Source: Acidobacteriota bacterium
GTDB lineage: Bacteria > Acidobacteriota > UBA6911 > RPQK01 > JAJDTT01
Assembly: GCA_965217775.1 (NCBI GenBank)
Contig: CBDCJH010000001.1
Span: forward strand, 1-64,000
DNA: 64,000 nt
Direction of reading: 5' to 3'
The notes under the pieces were generated by a model. That model did not search any database. It was given only the letters and a program-made list of their open reading frames with translations, and had not been told where the DNA came from. The position numbers and the translations under genes were made by a program. Position 1 is the stretch's first letter; every line of letters starts with the position of its first letter. This document shows, piece after piece, positions 18,849-25,166 of the stretch.

Positions 18849-20084
18849 TCAAGAGGCTATTCTCCAAGATGTGATCTGAATGCATGTCACGTCGTTGTTC
18901 TCGTCCCTTCCGTAGTAGGCGGTCAGGAGGGTGCCGTCATCCAACTGCGTGGTGGTCGGATATCCCAGATCTCTGTTCTTGAGATCATCCCGGAGTACAA
19001 TCTCACTCTCAATATTCCAGCTTCTACCGTCATCTGAGCTCAGGCAGGCCCGGATCCCAAAAGGCTCTCGCCGGTGGCCGTAGGTGGCCAGAAGTCTCCC
19101 ATCCTGGAGCTGCCGGAGATGGGCCGGATACCCCCACATCGGGGTCCTGGCCGGTGTGCTCCAGGTTTGCCCCAGATCGTGCGAATCGCTCTGGTAAAGC
19201 CATCCGGCCGGCCCGGTCCTGAGAAGAGCGATCATCCGACCGCTGGGCAGGTGTATCAGAGCCGGCTCGTTGTAGCCTATGCCATGAACCCCGTGTTCCC
19301 CGATCACGGACGGCTCACCCCAACTCCTCCCCCGATCACGAGATCGGAGGACATAGGCCGTCCAGGTCATCGCCGACTCCGAAGTCGATGGCCGATGGAA
19401 CTCCTCGTAGCAAGGCAGAAGCAGAGTTCCATCCGGCAGTTCGATGATCGCCCGGAGTTGACATCCTGCTTTGAAGGGGGAGACATCCACGCGGACCGGC
19501 TCCAACCAGGTGCGAGCATTGTCCAACGAGTGAAAAACATAGGTCATATCGTCGCTGTAGCCTGTCGCCCACTGATAAGGCTCCACCCGAGCCAAGCGAA
19601 CATCTGTTCTGCTGTCCACCGAGGCCGCCGGGGCAAAGGAACGGCGGAAGGCGTTGACCAGGATCTTTCCGTCGGAAAGCTGCGTGATACCCGGATCATC
19701 CATTCCGTAGTACTCATAGCCGCCGATGACTTCGGGATGCTCCGACCAGCTTTCACCCTGATCGCCGGAGCGAATGATCATGCCGTAGAAAGAGGGATCC
19801 GCGTGGGTCAATCGGGCGGTCCGGCGCATGGCTTCACAGAACGCAATCAGCATTTCTCCATCCCGGCACTTCAAGATGGTGGGCCATGCCGAGTATCCGT
19901 AAGGGTCCCAGAAGACAACTCTGTGCCTGAGGATGCCCGGGTAGGACTTGACCTCAGGAGGAGCAGGAGGCTTCGAAGGAGCCACTTCCGACGCTGCCGA
20001 CAGAGGGCGGACGCTCAGTGGCAGCGCTCCAAGGATGGCCAAGTGTTTCGCGAATTGCCGACGGGAGAAGTTCTTCCAGGTCAT
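18849..20084 (-). CDS. Sialidase-like BNR/Asp-box beta-propeller protein with Tat signal
   Basis: SRRQF; Asp boxes SGDQGESW, SLDNARTW, SRDRGRSW, SHDLGQTW, SSDDGRSW; DLGYP. Confidence 0.85.
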   Translation of the reverse strand: MTWKNFSRRQFAKHLAILGALPLSVRPLSAASEVAPSKPPAPPEVKSYPGILRHRVVFWDPYGYSAWPTILKCRDGEMLIAFCEAMRRTARLTHADPSFYGMIIRSGDQGESWSEHPEVIGGYEYYGMDDPGITQLSDGKILVNAFRRSFAPAASVDSRTDVRLARVEPYQWATGYSDDMTYVFHSLDNARTWLEPVRVDVSPFKAGCQLRAIIELPDGTLLLPCYEEFHRPSTSESAMTWTAYVLRSRDRGRSWGEPSVIGEHGVHGIGYNEPALIHLPSGRMIALLRTGPAGWLYQSDSHDLGQTWSTPARTPMWGYPAHLRQLQDGRLLATYGHRREPFGIRACLSSDDGRSWNIESEIVLRDDLKNRDLGYPTTTQLDDGTLLTAYYGRDENNDVTCIQITSWRIAS

Positions 20085-20327
20085 GGGAGCCCTCCGTGTT
20101 CGATCGAATCTCAGGCTGAAACTTCAACACGCAAGATACAGGAAACGAAGAGAAGAAGGTCGGATGTCCAGTGGGGAGTCGTTTGGGCTATTTCGAGGTC
20201 AGGGGCTGAGATCCGTCTTCTCCGAGGGTCTTTGGGGATTCGCAACGAGAATGGTGTGGGCTGTGAAACTCAAGTTTTCCTGAAGAAGAACCCCGGCAGG
20301 CCTCTTCCGAGGGCTGAGACTACGGCT

Positions 20328-22535
20328 ATGCATGCCATCTCCAACATTGCATCGGCGCTCCTGACCTGGACATTGCTCCTCAGCTCCGGTCAACTGACGG
20401 CACAGGACTTCACCCAGCCTTTCAAACCCGACCCCAACACCGTCGTCCTCTATCACTTCGATGAAGGCCAGGGTGACGAGACCCGCGATGCCTGTGGTGA
20501 TCCCGAACTGACCCTGCGGGCTCACCAGGAGGCATTGCGGGGCAGCCGGGCTGGCTTCGGAGCCACGGCCCGCTTCCTCCGCCGTGAGGACGATGCCAAC
20601 GTCCTGGTCGGTCCCGTCGACAACCCCAAGCTGGAGCTTCGGGGCTGCACCCGGGAGTGGACCATCGAGGCGTGGGTCCGCCACACGGGGGGATCGGAAC
20701 AGAATGGGTACCGGAACATCTGCGGGAGCGACGATGAGGGAGTCGGACTGACCGATGGGATCCGGGGGGGATGGAATTTCTTTCTGATCGCTCCCAGGAT
20801 CGACAGGGCCTGGGTCCTCGACCGGGGGATCGGTCCCCACGCCCGGTTCTTTGGATCCTACGCCCGAGCCCCCGGCCACGACGTCAATCAGATCGGCAGG
20901 TCCAACTCTACTTTCCTCATCACCGATGATGAGTGGCACCATGTGGCGTGGCAGTTCCGGTACCAAGATCAGATGCATTTCCTGTTCCTGGACGGGAAGC
21001 TGGTTTATCGGGAAAGCCGTCCTGGGGGAAGGTCCGTGAGCAACGACGCTGCCCGGTGTGATCTTCCCTTCGTCGTAGGAGGTTTCCTCCACGCGCAGGA
21101 GGCGCCCAGCCATTTCGACCCCGCCGGCCGCATGCCGTTTCCCAACTACGGAAACTTCGAGGGGGAGATCGACGAGCTGCGCATCTCCGACATCATGCGC
21201 TACCCGGTGGCCCAGCAGCTTCGTCTGATCCACCGAGTCCTGCCCGAGGCCGGTCTGAAGCTGCCTTACTCGGCAACTTTGTCTACGGATCCGGCCCGGG
21301 GCAAGGTCAGGTGGGAGCTGGCCGGCGGCAAGCTGCCGTCGGGTCTGGTCCTGGACCGGGCGAGTGGTCTCATCCATGGCACCCCGATTGAACTCGCCAG
21401 CGAAGCACGGCTTACGATTCGGGCAAGCGATGAGATTGGCCACAGTGACCAGCACCTGTTCACGCTCTCGGTGCGTCCGGGCCACATCACCACCGAGTCG
21501 CTCCCTCTGGCCTTGACAGGGCATTCTTATCGGCATCGTCTGGAGTCGGCGTATATGAGGACGCCGGTGAGGTGGAGGATCCGAAGGGACACTCTGCCCG
21601 AAGGGCTCGGGTTCGACAGGGCCAGCGGTGTGTTTTCGGGCACGCCTACGTCGGTGATCCGGACCCCTTTGACATTCGAGGCAGTGGATGGGCTCGGTGC
21701 TGTAGACACACAGGAGCTGATCTTCCGGGTGGTACCGGAAGCACTGCGACAGATTGCGCCGGATAAACACACCGTAGCCCTCTGGAACTGGCAGGGTCCC
21801 GGAAGCAGGCGCGTCGCCGACCTCAGGGGCGACGAGGAGCTGGCGCCGACCTGGATCAATCTGAAGGGCGAAACACGGATACCCCGGCCAAACTGGGGCC
21901 GGTATCCATACTTCATCGGCGGCGGCGAAGGAGGCTTCGTCGGACCCCGGAACAACGAGAAGCTGGACCTCAGGACCTGCAAGAGGGCCTGGACCGTTGA
22001 GGCCTGGGTCCGGCCAGGTGGACCCGTCGACGGTTATGGCCGCAAAGTCGACTTCGGACACATCTGTGGGACCTACGACAACAGCGAGCCCGGTGTCTGG
22101 GAGTTCTACCTTTCGAACCACAACTCACCCAACGGCAGCTTTTCGCCTGGGGTGCACTTTCTGGGCGCGGAGCCCGAACAATCTCTCAAGGATCTGCACC
22201 CCTGGTCCCGGCCCGAGGGCATCGTGGCCGACCCCAAGGAGGTGGGCATCCAGGACACCCGCTGGCACCACGTCGCCTGGCAATACAGTTACGTGGAAGA
22301 CCTCCATCAGCTCTTCCTGGACGGCCGGCTCATCTGGCAGATGAAGAGCCCCAATGGGCGCAACCTCGTCAACAATCGCCGCCACAATGCCCAGTTCAGC
22401 GTCGGGTCTCGTCTCACCGGCTATGCCCGCCTTGGCGGCAATTTCAACTGGTTGGGCAAGGGCAACTTCTTCGGTCAGATCGGGGAGATAAGGATCTCCG
22501 ATGTCCGCCGCTATGGCGGCGAGGCGGAAGACTGA
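20328..22535 (+). CDS. Secreted protein: LamG-like domain, putative Ig (He_PIG) repeats, second LamG-like domain
   Basis: Signal peptide; TVVLYHFDEG, WTIEAWV, WHHVAW, GEIDELRISD twice; LPSGLVLD..SGLIHGTP and LPEGLGFD..SGVFSGTP. Confidence 0.8.
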   Translation: MHAISNIASALLTWTLLLSSGQLTAQDFTQPFKPDPNTVVLYHFDEGQGDETRDACGDPELTLRAHQEALRGSRAGFGATARFLRREDDANVLVGPVDNPKLELRGCTREWTIEAWVRHTGGSEQNGYRNICGSDDEGVGLTDGIRGGWNFFLIAPRIDRAWVLDRGIGPHARFFGSYARAPGHDVNQIGRSNSTFLITDDEWHHVAWQFRYQDQMHFLFLDGKLVYRESRPGGRSVSNDAARCDLPFVVGGFLHAQEAPSHFDPAGRMPFPNYGNFEGEIDELRISDIMRYPVAQQLRLIHRVLPEAGLKLPYSATLSTDPARGKVRWELAGGKLPSGLVLDRASGLIHGTPIELASEARLTIRASDEIGHSDQHLFTLSVRPGHITTESLPLALTGHSYRHRLESAYMRTPVRWRIRRDTLPEGLGFDRASGVFSGTPTSVIRTPLTFEAVDGLGAVDTQELIFRVVPEALRQIAPDKHTVALWNWQGPGSRRVADLRGDEELAPTWINLKGETRIPRPNWGRYPYFIGGGEGGFVGPRNNEKLDLRTCKRAWTVEAWVRPGGPVDGYGRKVDFGHICGTYDNSEPGVWEFYLSNHNSPNGSFSPGVHFLGAEPEQSLKDLHPWSRPEGIVADPKEVGIQDTRWHHVAWQYSYVEDLHQLFLDGRLIWQMKSPNGRNLVNNRRHNAQFSVGSRLTGYARLGGNFNWLGKGNFFGQIGEIRISDVRRYGGEAED

Positions 22536-22574
22536 TTCAACCAGCCCAGCCAGAACTCTTTAGGTGATGAGAAA

Positions 22575-23818
22575 GGGGATTATATACGTAAGTGCCGAGA
22601 ATTCAGGCTGATGGGTTACAATTCCGACCATGAAAGGCCACGCAACTATCCAGTGCCGAGCCAAGCTGTCCAAGGGTGGAATCCGGCGGTTGGACCGGGT
22701 GAGGTCCATCCTGAATCGGCTGTACAACGCTGCACTGGAGGAACGCAGGACGGCCTGGGAATCCGAGCAACGCGGCGTGACCCTGTACGATCAGATGAAG
22801 GGGTTGACCTCCCAGAGGAAGGACGATCCGGAGGGGCTCGAGTCGGTGGCGGTCAAGGCGGAGCGTGGGATGTTGATGCGGTTGGACCGGGCCTTCAAGG
22901 CGTTCTTCCGTCGCTGCAAGGCGGGGGAGAAGCCGGGGTATCCTCGATTCCGGCCCATTGCGAGGATGGAGACCATCGACGTCGTCGACCCCAAAGCGAC
23001 CCTGGTGAAGAAGCGCGCTCGGGGCTACGCCATCCAGCCCAAGGGCTTCCCGACGATCCGGATATTTCCGTCCCGGCCGTTGCCGGACGGATGCCCGTTG
23101 AAGGCGTTGCGGATCGTCCGCAAGCCGAACCGGGTGTATGTGGACCTGACGTACGAGGTGGAGAAGCCGCCGCTACCGAAATGCGAGTCTTCGGTAGGGA
23201 TCGACCTGGGCGTCCGCAAGCGAGCGGTGCTGTCCACGGGTGAGAGGATCGAACGGAATAGACGGGACTGGGCGGGGATCCGAAAGCAGCAGAGAAAGGT
23301 CTCCAGGTGCACGAAGACTTCCAAGACCAGACGGAAGCGGATCCTACATCTATCTCGGCTCCGTCAGCGGGAAGCGGTCCGAAACCGTAATGCCTGCCAT
23401 CGTCTCTCCACCAGGATCATTCGTGAGCACGGTCTGATCGCTGTGGAGAAGCTGAACATCCAAGGGATGGTAACGAAGGGCTCGAAGAAGAAGGGGCTGA
23501 ATCGAGAAATAATGACGCAATCATGGGGGCTTCTGCGGAATCAACTCCAGTACAAGGCAGAATGGGCCGGTCGGGAGTTCGTAGAAGTGAATCCCGCATA
23601 TACATCGCAGGACTGCCACCGGTGCGGCGCCCGCCACGATCCAGGGCGGAGAGAAACCTTCCGGTGCAGGGCCTGCGGACTTGGAATGGACAGGGACCAC
23701 AATGCCGCCCTGAACATTCTCAGGGCTGGGGTTCTTGCCCTGGGCACCGGAACGTATCTCGTTGGGGAAAGCGTGGTGCCAGAACTGTATGCCAAGGGCA
23801 CTTAGGTATATAAGCCCC
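22575..23818 (+). mobile_element. Non-autonomous TIR/TSD-bounded element carrying only tnpB (IS1595-like ends)
   Basis: TIRs GGGGATTATATACGTAAGTGCC (22575-22596) and GGCACTTAGGTATATAAGCCCC (23797-23818), 20/22; ATGAGAAA duplicated at 22567-22574 and 23819-23826. Confidence 0.9.
22630..23805 (+). CDS. tnpB: RNA-guided endonuclease TnpB
   Basis: YNAALEERR, PGYPRFR, RuvC VGIDLG / IAVEKL / DRDHNAALNI, Zn finger CHRC...CRAC, VNPAYTSQ. Confidence 0.95.
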   Translation: MKGHATIQCRAKLSKGGIRRLDRVRSILNRLYNAALEERRTAWESEQRGVTLYDQMKGLTSQRKDDPEGLESVAVKAERGMLMRLDRAFKAFFRRCKAGEKPGYPRFRPIARMETIDVVDPKATLVKKRARGYAIQPKGFPTIRIFPSRPLPDGCPLKALRIVRKPNRVYVDLTYEVEKPPLPKCESSVGIDLGVRKRAVLSTGERIERNRRDWAGIRKQQRKVSRCTKTSKTRRKRILHLSRLRQREAVRNRNACHRLSTRIIREHGLIAVEKLNIQGMVTKGSKKKGLNREIMTQSWGLLRNQLQYKAEWAGREFVEVNPAYTSQDCHRCGARHDPGRRETFRCRACGLGMDRDHNAALNILRAGVLALGTGTYLVGESVVPELYAKGT

Positions 23819-23873
23819 ATGAGAAACCTGGGTTGATCGCGTTTCGACGCGAGATTCGAACAGAGGATCGACT

Positions 23874-25166
23874 ATGCCAAGAACGAGCCTATTGGTTTTC
23901 GGGTTGGCTTGCCTGGTGCTCACCCTGGCGGTGGCAGCGCAAGAGGCACGCCCGGCACCAGAAAGCGAAGCGTGGGAGCGGCAGGCCCAAGCCTACTTGA
24001 AAAGTATTCTGTACCCGCGGGAGCAGGTGGAGGACTGGATCTCGGGCAGGGCAACGCTGGGTGAATCCTACGACAGCCAACTGGGGTGGCTGTTTGCCGA
24101 CAGACGGGTCAAACACGGGGTCGATGGATCGATATCGACCTATCGGTACGCGGGCGCCCGCCGAACCATCATGTACGGCGGCAACCCTTGCCGGATCAAC
24201 ACCTACGGAAACAGTTTCACTCACTGCGACCAGGTCAGTGACGGCGAAACCTGGCAGGAAGTGCTCGCCGCCCACCTGTGTGAACCTCTGCGCAACTTCG
24301 GAGTCGGGGGGTACTCCGTCTACCAGGCCTACCTGAGAATGCTGCGGGAGGAAACTCGTACCCCCGCCCGGTACATCATCTTCAACATCTACGACGACGA
24401 TCACTATCGAAACCTGCATGGCTGGCGCAACATTCGATTGGGCTATACGACCGGGATGTGGCCGGCCGTGCTCGGCTCCACCATGCCCTACGTCGTTGTG
24501 AATCCCGCAACCAAGCAATTTACCGAGTTCAAAAACCCCTGTCCTACTCCCGAATCGGTTCGTAACCTCAGCGACCCCGACTGGGTGTTCGAGCGATTCA
24601 AGGACGACTTCGTGCTGAAGATCGTGCTGGCCCAAAGGGATCCAGGGACGAGCTCCCCCCAGCCGAGCTACGACGTGATTGAGGAGCTGGCTCGGGAACA
24701 CGGCCTCCGGATCAGCATCGGGACTCCGGAAGAGCTGAAACGAACCGCAGAGGAGCTTTACACCAGAGCCGCGCTGTTCGCCACCATGAGGATCGTCGAG
24801 AAGATCGAGCACTTTGCATCGGCTCAGGGAAAACAAGTCCTCTTCGTGCTCTCCTATGGGCAACGGAACGCAGCGCAGGTGCTGAAAACAGGGGAACGTT
24901 TCGACCAGAGCCTGCTTGATTTTCTAGAAGAGAAGAGGCTGCCTTATGTCGATCTGATGGAAGCGCACAGGAGGGATTTTGCCCAGTTCAACCTGACTGT
25001 GGACGAGTACATCAGGCGTTATTGGATCGGCCACTACAATCCCCGGGGCAACTTTTTTCAGGCATTTGCCATCAAGGACAAGTTGGTCGAGCTGCTCGAC
25101 CCGAAGCCCATCAGCTACTCCACCGATCCATCGACGTACATCGAAATGAAGCCCAACAGGCCCTAA
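23874..25166 (+). CDS. Secreted SGNH-hydrolase-like protein
   Basis: Signal peptide; YGNSFT, NFGVGGYSVYQ, GHYNPRGN. Confidence 0.65.
   Translation: MPRTSLLVFGLACLVLTLAVAAQEARPAPESEAWERQAQAYLKSILYPREQVEDWISGRATLGESYDSQLGWLFADRRVKHGVDGSISTYRYAGARRTIMYGGNPCRINTYGNSFTHCDQVSDGETWQEVLAAHLCEPLRNFGVGGYSVYQAYLRMLREETRTPARYIIFNIYDDDHYRNLHGWRNIRLGYTTGMWPAVLGSTMPYVVVNPATKQFTEFKNPCPTPESVRNLSDPDWVFERFKDDFVLKIVLAQRDPGTSSPQPSYDVIEELAREHGLRISIGTPEELKRTAEELYTRAALFATMRIVEKIEHFASAQGKQVLFVLSYGQRNAAQVLKTGERFDQSLLDFLEEKRLPYVDLMEAHRRDFAQFNLTVDEYIRRYWIGHYNPRGNFFQAFAIKDKLVELLDPKPISYSTDPSTYIEMKPNRP

What the first reader, a model, noticed from the sequence alone, without database searches (positions are those of the whole stretch)
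22567..23826. TnpB carried by a TIR/TSD (DDE-type, IS1595-like) mini-transposon rather than IS200/IS605/IS607 ends
Seen: a 1,244-bp element with 22-bp TIRs (20/22) and an exact 8-bp direct repeat, ATGAGAAA, on both sides. tnpB fills it: only 33 bp separate the left TIR from the ATG (TACAAT 7 nt upstream, leaderless-like), and the TAG lies inside the right TIR. The RuvC D-E-D residues and Zn finger are intact. Known: bacterial tnpB normally travels with HUH (IS200/IS605) or serine (IS607) transposases, which use no TIRs and make no TSD. 8-bp TSDs with GGnnATTAT-type ends match my recollection of the IS1595 ISNwi1 subgroup (verify in ISfinder). Inference: a non-autonomous RNA-guided nuclease cassette mobilised in trans by a DDE transposase, a bacterial parallel to Fanzor capture by DDE transposons. 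This is the best candidate for an undescribed system here.
Basis: partly seen in the sequence, partly recalled or inferred. Interest (0 to 1): 0.92.

Follow-up and report, generated by a model that had tools for sequence, protein, structure and literature searches.

The report
TnpB cassette riding IS1595 transposon ends
This is a small, multi-copy mobile element that carries only an RNA-guided nuclease gene (tnpB) but has the ends of a classical IS1595 cut-and-insert transposon found in the same genome, so it most likely borrows that transposon's enzyme to move; the general idea is published, but not with this transposon family.

Summary
Window 22575-23818 is a 1,244-bp element with 22-nt inverted ends (20/22), an exact 8-bp duplication (ATGAGAAA), and a 391-aa TnpB filling it.

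It is a real, active insertion sequence:
- The genome holds 12 full-length copies; 10 have exact, different 8-bp duplications.
- Two related genomes carry the empty site with ATGAGAAA once.

The same genome has 5 copies of a 1,762-bp IS1595-family element. Its ends match the tnpB element's left end at 21/22, and it also makes 8-bp duplications. No tnpB locus contains a transposase, so trans-mobilisation by the IS1595 DDE transposase is strongly supported.

Added here:
- Diverged tnpB-only subfamilies (72-95% aa) in sister genomes keep the same layout, with dN/dS 0.14-0.35.
- The last ~100 nt, running into the right inverted end, form three covarying stems, a likely omega-RNA scaffold.
- Insertions are orientation-biased (G before the duplication in 22/23, against 4/12 for the IS1595 itself), which looks like a TAM footprint.

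Altae-Tran et al. 2023 (PNAS) already describe DDE-associated TnpBs with inverted ends and solo TnpBs moved in trans. IS1595 is not named in what I could read. I rate it a new variant of a known kind.

The parts
22567..22574 (.). left copy of the 8-bp target-site duplication ATGAGAAA
   Evidence: The sequence is present once in the empty alleles of two sister genomes.
22575..22596 (+). left terminal inverted repeat GGGGATTATATACGTAAGTGCC
   Evidence: inverted repeat I1. All 12 genomic copies begin here. It matches the ends of the 1,762-bp IS1595 element at 21/22.
22617..22622 (+). TACAAT hexamer 7 nt before the ATG; a possible -10 box, not shown to be one
   Evidence: Read from the sequence. 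The promoter scan found no + strand site here. RNA-library contigs begin at 22616 and 22645, which is only a weak hint.
22630..23805 (+). tnpB, 391 aa, an RNA-guided endonuclease of the ISDra2-like type
   Evidence: dN/dS is 0.14-0.35 between subfamilies. The frame is intact in 10 of 12 copies.
23721..23812 (+). three covarying stems (23721-23742, 23743-23780, 23786-23812); the inferred 3' part of the omega-RNA scaffold. The last stem spans the stop codon and the inner half of the right TIR.
   Evidence: 97.5% of cells are paired and 13 of 31 pairs carry compensatory changes. 0 of 500 shuffles reach this; slid controls give 33-49% paired.
23797..23818 (-). right terminal inverted repeat (read inward: GGGGCTTATATACCTAAGTGCC)
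23819..23826 (.). right copy of the 8-bp target-site duplication ATGAGAAA
23819..23838 (+). flank that would supply the omega-RNA guide if transcription reads through the right end (inferred; length assumed by analogy with known TnpBs)
   Evidence: Inference. RNA-library contigs run from tnpB through 23818 into four different flanks (table 7).
22564..22567 (+). left-flank GTG plus the first duplicated base A: this copy's instance of the orientation-specific D-D-G|A motif, a candidate TAM
   Evidence: (19 sites), plus two sites and two. G at -1 in 22/23 and A at +1 in 23/23. Contrast with the partner IS.

Best explanation
The element is a non-autonomous insertion sequence. It is a tnpB gene with its own guide-RNA scaffold, packed between the terminal inverted repeats of an IS1595-family transposon.

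Shown:
- It is multi-copy.
- It inserts with 8-bp target duplications into AT-rich octamers.
- It has no transposase of its own.
- It shares its ends with a co-resident IS1595 element that encodes a DDE transposase.

Inferred:
- That transposase binds the shared ends and moves the cassette in trans.
- tnpB is transcribed from just inside the left end. Transcription reads through the right end, and the last ~100+ nt fold into the omega-RNA scaffold. The scaffold's last stem overlaps the right inverted repeat.
- The duplicated octamer plus the downstream flank then becomes the guide.
- TnpB would cut the matching empty site on a sister chromosome, or the site re-formed after excision. It would do so only where the left flank supplies a G-rich, C-free motif (D-D-G just before the duplication, possibly extending to the first A). 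Recombinational repair would then restore the element.
- The filled site is protected because the right end reads ...GCCCC at that position.
- This would explain why surviving copies sit in one orientation relative to that motif, while the autonomous IS1595 does not.
For: Mobility and ends
- 12 copies end at the TIRs; 10 of 12 have exact, different 8-bp TSDs.
- Empty sites exist in two sister genomes.

Partner element
- 5 copies of a 1,762-bp IS have TIR GGGGATTATATACGAAAGTGCC, a 21/22 match to the left TIR and 19/22 to the right. All 5 have exact 8-bp TSDs.
- Its 334-aa ORF is an IS1595-family transposase.
- The same IS is present in G006, which also holds the 95%-identical tnpB element. At least 7 copies there have exact TSDs.
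- tblastn with the transposase hit none of the tnpB loci fetched up.
- All 6 tnpB-positive genomes of the genus have PF12762.

Conservation
- tnpB-only elements of 72-95% aa identity in sister genomes and in G000 keep GGGG[A/C]TTATA ends and 8-bp TSDs. Of 14 examined, 10 TSDs are exact, 2 are 7/8 and 2 are absent.
- dN/dS is 0.14-0.35.
- D/E/D and the zinc finger are intact.

RNA
- Three stems carry 13 compensatory pairs and beat all controls.
- RNA-library contigs run from about 22616 through the right TIR into four different flanks; none cross the left TIR.

TAM-like footprint
- G at -1 in 22/23 and A at +1 in 23/23.
- Only 1 C among 57 cells at -3..-1, in a genome that is 31% C.
- For 12 partner IS copies the figures are 4/12 and 6/12. 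Fisher p = 1.6e-4 and 5.7e-4.
- The bias also holds in subfamilies B and C, whose two TIRs are nearly identical.
Against: - No experiment or read-level RNA data: transposition in trans, the omega-RNA ends, the guide and the TAM are all inferred.
- The right TIR differs from the partner's at 3 of 22 positions.
- Only subfamily A has a close TIR partner among the IS1595 loci fetched. Subfamilies B-F share just the terminal ~10 nt with any IS1595 found.
- G005 has 5 intact B-family copies but only one PF12762 match, and that one is interrupted by a stop.
- IS1595 transposases also occur in tnpB-free sister genomes (G002 12 matches, G001 1), so co-occurrence is only a weak test.
- The RNA libraries may contain DNA, and contigs cannot show starts, ends or strand.
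- The covarying stems lie partly in coding sequence. The structure was derived from the same alignment on which it was counted.
- The footprint rests on 23 and 12 sites. Many are related copies, so the p-values overstate the case.
- A cut-and-paste DDE element already leaves a break on excision, so the benefit of TnpB homing is less obvious than for IS605. The review PMC13565253 (passages read) makes this point.
Confidence: 0.8

Rival explanations
1. Trans-mobilisation by IS1595 is right, but TnpB is only cargo. It may serve the host or some other function (for example defence or regulation) and play no part in the element's own retention. On this view the left-flank G|A bias is a target preference of the transposase or a sampling effect, not a TAM.
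For: - 6 of 12 partner IS copies have a G|A half-site on one side or the other (read), so the transposase itself may weakly prefer G|A...T|C.
- IS1595 elements are known to carry passengers (recalled).
- The partner IS here carries about 700 bp of extra DNA with a restriction-endonuclease-like ORF fragment.
Against: - The bias is orientation-specific relative to tnpB (22/23 on the left) even where both TIRs are nearly identical. In the partner IS the half-site is split 3 left and 3 right.
- The scaffold-like stems end 6 nt from the element boundary. That placement is what a flank-derived guide requires.
- The catalytic residues are intact.
Confidence: 0.15
2. This is a nested insertion: an IS200/IS605-type (IS1341-like) tnpB element that landed inside an IS1595-derived MITE. 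Its true ends would then be hairpins inside the TIRs.
For: - The nearest annotated and structurally solved relatives are Y1-associated ISDra2/Thermus-type TnpBs at 33-39% identity.
- Hairpins exist near the right end.
- The genome has 3 weak Y1_Tnp matches (22-39 bits).
Against: - All 12 copies and all diverged subfamilies begin and end at the TIRs with TSDs. No copy was found without TIRs.
- Only 33 bp lie between the left TIR and the ATG, and the stop codon is inside the right TIR. That leaves no room for separate IS605 ends.
- The empty site shows TIR-to-TIR insertion.
- The Y1_Tnp matches lie in 225-316-aa frames, far from any copy.
- An ancient nesting followed by fusion is possible as history, but it is not how the element moves now.
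Confidence: 0.03
3. The element is mobilised by a different transposase than the 1,762-bp IS, either another IS1595 variant or an unrelated enzyme, and the near-identity of the ends is shared ancestry only.
For: - Several IS1595 variants with GGGGATTATAT... ends co-reside: 1,627-bp and 1,531-bp elements with transposases 59-65% identical to the 1,762-bp one.
- Subfamilies B-F lack a close partner.
Against: - The 1,762-bp IS is by far the closest match: 1 mismatch in 22, against 3 to 5 for the other variants.
- It is multi-copy with perfect TIRs and intact ORFs in both genomes that hold subfamily A.
Confidence: 0.1

Closest known systems
DDE-transposase-associated TnpB branches (DDE-1 to DDE-6) and trans-mobilised solo TnpBs, Altae-Tran et al. 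2023 PNAS (PMC10691335; section 9 read in full, other passages via search)
   Same: - A prokaryotic TnpB flanked by inverted terminal repeats.
- The TnpB 3' end lies close to the transposon end (here 13 bp).
- A solo TnpB whose ends are nearly identical to those of a transposase-bearing element, implying mobilisation in trans.
   Different: - The partner here is IS1595. That name occurs 0 times in the paper's main text. The 2026 review PMC13565253 lists only ISL2, IS630 and IS1031 as DDE partners (passages read).
- Here tnpB was never found in cis with the transposase in any locus examined.
IS200/IS605 family, IS1341 group (tnpB-only elements) and ISDra2 TnpB
   Same: - The protein is an ISDra2-like TnpB (phmmer E 4e-32 to 8bf8/8exa, aligned over residues 26-375).
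- It is a tnpB-only element.
- The structured RNA region overlaps the 3' end of the gene.
   Different: IS200/IS605 elements have no TIRs and make no TSD (PMC13565253, passage read). This element has 22-nt TIRs and 8-bp TSDs. It should not be filed in that family despite the automatic name.
IS1595 family insertion sequences and their non-autonomous derivatives
   Same: TIRs, 8-bp TSDs, AT-rich targets and shared terminal sequence.
   Different: The element carries no DDE transposase. Its single gene is an RNA-guided nuclease whose RNA scaffold overlaps one TIR.
Fanzor1/Fanzor2* in eukaryotic cut-and-paste transposons (Yoon et al. 2023 NAR, PMC10711439; passages read)
   Same: - A TnpB-type nuclease inside a TIR/TSD transposon, often non-autonomous.
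- The TIR forms part of the guide-RNA scaffold.
- The RNA extends beyond the transposon end.
   Different: This case is bacterial, with an ordinary-length TnpB. The TSD here is a variable 8-mer, so it cannot be a fixed scaffold element as proposed for Fanzors.

Membership tests
TnpB (RNA-guided endonuclease, OrfB_IS605 superfamily) | Profile match over curated cut-offs | tested here: met
   NCBIfam NF040570 guided_TnpB 219 bits (cut-off 100). Pfam PF01385 66.6 bits (cut-off 30.5) and PF07282 91 bits (cut-off 26.3).
TnpB (RNA-guided endonuclease, OrfB_IS605 superfamily) | RuvC D-E-D catalytic triad and CxxC...CxxC zinc finger | tested here: met
   GIDLG, AVEKL and MDRDHNAA align with the GVDVG, GTEHL and HDRDENAA motifs of ISDra2 TnpB. 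CHRCG and CRACG are present. Which ISDra2 residues are catalytic is recalled.
TnpB (RNA-guided endonuclease, OrfB_IS605 superfamily) | Cognate omega/reRNA encoded at the 3' end of the gene and reaching the element boundary | tested here: inconclusive
   Covarying stems at 23721-23812 end 6 nt from the boundary. There is no Rfam match and no read-level RNA ends.
IS200/IS605 family (IS1341 group) | No terminal inverted repeats and no target-site duplication; subterminal hairpin ends; insertion 3' of a short fixed motif | tested here: not met
   22-nt TIRs and 8-bp TSDs in 10 of 12 copies. The empty site holds the octamer once.
IS1595 family (the partner element) | DDE_Tnp_IS1595 catalytic domain | tested here: met
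   PF12762 132 bits (cut-off 27). NF033547 transpos_IS1595 177 bits (cut-off 75).
IS1595 family (the partner element) | N-terminal zinc ribbon | tested here: inconclusive
   PF12760 24.5 bits against a cut-off of 25.4. NF050000 19.5 bits against 28.
IS1595 family (the partner element) | TIRs and 8-bp TSD | tested here: met
   12 of 12 copies of the 1,762-bp IS in G000 and G006 have exact 8-bp TSDs. 9 of 12 have perfect 24-nt TIRs and the other 3 have 22-23 of 24.
IS1595 family, ISNwi1 subgroup | Subgroup-specific end sequence and transposase clade (ISfinder definition) | not tested
No ISfinder data are available, and the literature search gave nothing usable.
DDE-associated TnpB branches of Altae-Tran et al. 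2023 | Inverted terminal repeats around tnpB, with the 3' end of tnpB within 250 bp of the end | tested here: met
   The stop codon is 13 bp from the right boundary.
DDE-associated TnpB branches of Altae-Tran et al. 2023 | Phylogenetic placement in one of branches DDE-1 to DDE-6 | not testable with these tools

The most novel reading that the evidence does not exclude
A bacterial TnpB lineage has been re-fitted to a classical DDE (IS1595) transposon.

- Its omega-RNA scaffold has absorbed the transposase-binding inverted repeat.
- Its guide starts with the variable 8-bp target duplication.
- A G-rich, C-free TAM just left of the duplication decides which insertions persist. That leaves a visible orientation footprint in the genome.

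If so, this is a natural, multi-copy bacterial counterpart of Fanzor-in-DDE-transposons. It comes with an identified helper transposase, and it makes the question of what an RNA-guided nuclease does for a TSD-making transposon directly testable.
Probability: 0.4. Interest if true: 0.72.

Novelty: new variant of a known kind. Interest (0 to 1): 0.55.

Why it matters
TnpB biology has been worked out almost entirely for IS200/IS605 and IS607, which excise without scars and make no duplications. How the nuclease serves a DDE transposon is an open point, raised explicitly in the 2026 review (PMC13565253). Such transposons make target duplications and leave a break when they excise.

This locus offers a compact natural system to study it:
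- a defined 1.24-kb cassette;
- an identified helper transposase in the same genome;
- many insertion sites and empty alleles;
- several diverged subfamilies that give RNA covariation;
- a candidate TAM readable from the genome.

It also shows that automatic annotation as an 'IS200/IS605 family TnpB' mislabels the element type. In addition, it adds IS1595 to the short list of DDE families reported to carry or mobilise TnpB.

Tried and rejected
- **Rfam.** The search of 22300-24100 at E <= 1 gave no family.
- **Promoter.** The consensus scan gave no + strand site upstream of tnpB.
- **Phylum-wide search.** Searching 400 genomes with a 50%-identical relative (P0059) found matches only in the same genus: 3 of 401 genomes including G000, at E <= 1e-60. 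It therefore gave no new outgroup loci.
- **Metagenome scan.**
  - It returned 80 loci; 68 had at least 120 bp on both sides of the match.
  - My TIR finder required at least 15 of 18 matches within 250 bp of the ORF. It recovered 3 of 3 positive controls.
  - Among the 68 it found a strong TIR only in L161 (50% aa identity).
  - Six others reached 15/18, with TSD <= 2 bp. I treat those as chance or hairpins.
  - An earlier version of the finder missed the positive control and crashed once.
- **Partner TIRs for subfamilies B-F.** None within 5 mismatches, except two weak one-sided hits.
- **Y1 transposase.** Only 3 weak Y1_Tnp matches, none near a copy.
- **Literature.** Searches for TnpB+IS1595, IS1595+RNA-guided, TnpB+TSD+inverted repeats+in trans, IS1341+inverted repeat and ISNwi1+IS1595 found no paper linking TnpB to IS1595. 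PMC9956272 (passages read) has nothing on TIR-bounded TnpB.
- **RNA-library contigs.** The high depth of short contigs at 23533-23582 in run X17 I attribute to collapse of several tnpB subfamilies on a conserved motif, not to a small RNA. Parts of the stretch without cover in those RNA contigs are not evidence of silence.
- **Earlier findings.** The search of earlier findings was not open.
Full report
**1.

Window 22575-23818 is bounded by the longest inverted repeat in the region: 22 nt, 20/22 complementary. It is flanked on both sides by ATGAGAAA. One ORF, 22630-23805, fills it.
- The ATG lies 33 bp from the left repeat.
- The TAG lies inside the right repeat.

The protein is a TnpB.
- NCBIfam guided_TnpB scores 219 bits against a cut-off of 100. 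Pfam OrfB_IS605 and Cas12f1-like_TNB also hit.
- Its best solved natural relative is ISDra2 TnpB (8bf8/8exa, E 4e-32).
- The GIDLG, AVEKL and DRDHNAA motifs and both CxxC pairs align with it. Which ISDra2 residues are catalytic is my recollection.

**2. It is a real, recently active insertion sequence**

The window's genome has two contigs totalling 6.43 Mb. It holds 12 full-length copies at 93-100% identity, all aligned end to end with the inverted repeats.
- Ten have exact 8-bp duplications, all different from one another. One has 7/8, and one has unrelated flanks, as expected after recombination between copies.
- Ten of the 12 keep an open 391-aa frame. One has a TGA, and one is split by a 158-bp MITE.
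- Two sister genomes carry the unoccupied site. L116 reads TAGGTG-ATGAGAAA-CCTGGG with flanks 96% identical. L115 reads CAGGTA-ATGAGAAT-CCCGGG. The octamer is present once there, so the insertion duplicated it.

**3. The helper transposon**

A fuzzy search for the terminal repeat found five copies of a 1,762-bp element.
- Both of its ends read GGGGATTATATACGAAAGTGCC. That is one mismatch from the tnpB element's left end and three from its right end.
- Each copy has its own exact 8-bp duplication.
- It encodes a 334-aa IS1595-family transposase. NF033547 scores 177 bits against a cut-off of 75, and PF12762 scores 132 bits. The zinc ribbon is just under its cut-off.
- Similarity between the two element types is confined to the terminal 22-24 bp.
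- tblastn with the transposase found it in none of the tnpB loci held at that point, so the cassette is non-autonomous.
- The same 1,762-bp IS occurs in sister genome G006, with at least 7 copies having exact duplications. G006 also has the 95%-identical tnpB element.
- More distant IS1595 variants (1,627 bp and 1,531 bp) share only the first 11-13 nt of the end.

**4. The architecture is old within this lineage**

Record titles of the relatives say Acidobacteriota MAGs. tnpB relatives at E <= 1e-30 were found in 5 of 8 other genomes of the genus and in 0 of 52 genomes outside it among those searched.

At least five further tnpB-only subfamilies exist at 72-86% aa identity.
- Their own inverted repeats all begin GGGG[A/C]TTATA. 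Examples are GGGGATTATAAAGAGTGTTTGACAC and GGGGCTTATATATCTAACTTGA.
- They also make 8-bp duplications.
- dN/dS between subfamilies is 0.14-0.35, so the protein has stayed under selection while living between inverted repeats.

Further out:
- A 50%-identical metagenomic relative (L161) still has GGGGC[C/A]TATATAC... repeats, about 29/31 by eye.
- A 45%-identical SAR202 relative (L075) has different repeats and a 7-bp duplication.
- Among 67 more distant metagenomic relatives (33-41% identity) with adequate flanks, none showed repeats plus a duplication. The finder recovered 3 of 3 positive controls.
- The nearest annotated plasmid relatives (33-39%) are Deinococcus/Thermus TnpBs, some next to an IS200/IS605 tnpA.

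The picture is an ISDra2-like TnpB lineage that moved into TIR/TSD transposons.

**5. A guide-RNA scaffold that overlaps the right repeat**

I aligned the last 170 nt of 13 elements from six subfamilies. RNAalifold gives three stems at window 23721-23742, 23743-23780 and 23786-23812. Counted explicitly:
- 97.5% of 396 cells pair.
- 13 of 31 pairs carry compensatory double changes.
- 0 of 500 shuffles reach any of the five measures.
- Sliding the partners by 1-3 columns drops pairing to 33-49% and compensatory pairs to 1-3.

The third stem spans the stop codon and the inner half of the right repeat, leaving AGCCCC before the boundary.

This is where a TnpB omega-RNA scaffold should sit. It implies a guide taken from the flank, that is, the duplicated octamer plus downstream bases.

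Caveats:
- The structure was derived from the same alignment on which it was counted.
- Part of it is coding sequence.
- Rfam has no match.

Contigs from four RNA libraries of two studies cover tnpB from 22616 or 22645 onward. They run through 23818 into four different flanks, and none crosses the left repeat. This fits a start just inside the left end with read-through. However, contigs cannot show ends or strand, and DNA carry-over is not excluded.

**6. An orientation footprint that looks like a TAM**

I oriented the insertion sites by tnpB.
- The base before the duplication is G in 22 of 23 sites. That is 19 sites, two, and L063 and L067.
- The first duplicated base is A in 23 of 23.
- In the 19-site table, positions -3 to -1 hold one C among 57 cells, in a genome that is 31% C.
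- The right side shows no mirror-image signal: T|C in 5 of 19.

The autonomous 1,762-bp IS, oriented by its transposase, has G at -1 in 4 of 12 and A at +1 in 6 of 12. Its G|A half-site falls on either side equally, 3 and 3. Fisher p is 1.6e-4 and 5.7e-4. Related copies make these p-values optimistic.

The bias also holds in subfamilies whose two repeats are nearly identical, so it is not due to asymmetric ends.

The simplest reading is selection by TnpB.
- Only insertions whose left flank supplies the TAM can be restored by cutting the empty site.
- The occupied site is protected because ...GCCCC replaces the motif there.

This is inference, not measurement.

**7. What is known, and novelty**

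- IS200/IS605 elements have no TIRs and make no TSDs (PMC13565253, passage read). The element therefore fails a defining feature of the family under which its protein is automatically named.
- The concept itself is not new. Altae-Tran et al. 2023 (PMC10691335, section 9 read in full) report six DDE-associated TnpB branches, all with inverted terminal repeats. [quoted passage not shown]
- The 2026 review names ISL2, IS630 and IS1031 as the DDE partners.
- IS1595 appears in neither main text.
- Five literature searches found no paper linking TnpB and IS1595.
- Supplementary tables that might list this clade were closed.
- Yoon et al. 2023 (PMC10711439, passages read) describe the analogous inclusion of TIR and TSD in Fanzor RNAs.

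**Verdict.** Novelty is downgraded from 'undescribed system' to a new variant of a known kind: a new DDE partner family and an exclusively solo arrangement. What this analysis adds is the identified helper, the empty sites, RNA covariation and a candidate TAM.

Noticed in passing
G000 contig C2:4647530-4647687 (inside a tnpB copy); not in the window: A 158-bp MITE-like repeat (CAGTCCGTGG...CCACGGGCTG, inverted ends) interrupts one tnpB copy. It gives 269 blastn hits in the genome at E <= 1e-5, many at 98-100% identity.
   Followed up: partly
L024:2023-2737 (the 1,762-bp IS1595 element, downstream of its transposase): The helper IS carries about 700 bp beyond its transposase gene. This includes a 110-aa ORF with a marginal restriction-endonuclease-like match (PF22722 NA-iREase1, 27.6 bits against a cut-off of 27; Mrr_cat below its cut-off). 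It may be a passenger or a remnant.
   Followed up: partly
L075:2881-4262 (SAR202 MAG contig): A 45%-identical TnpB is bounded by different inverted repeats (GAGACGATTTCACAAAT...) with a 7-bp direct repeat TGTGTAT. This suggests a second TIR/TSD transposon type carrying this TnpB lineage in another phylum. No transposase partner was sought.
   Followed up: partly
G005 (sister genome), loci L062, L064, L065, L071: Subfamily B tnpB elements (one search lists five places in G005, four of them fetched here) are intact. Yet the genome shows only one PF12762 match, and that one is interrupted by a stop. No IS1595 with matching ends was found, so these may be orphaned cassettes or have an unidentified helper.
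   Followed up: partly
window 22465-22566: Only the last 58-109 bp before the insertion site are syntenic (92-96% identical) with the sister genomes that hold the empty site. The body of the upstream 1,153-aa ORF (19074-22535) matches elsewhere in those genomes at 71-73%. This suggests a rearranged or variable large gene ending at a conserved tail.
   Followed up: no
G000 C2:1186780-1188023: One full-length tnpB copy has unrelated octamers on its two sides (AATGGATT and AAACATAT). This is consistent with recombination between two copies, that is, a rearrangement breakpoint.
   Followed up: no
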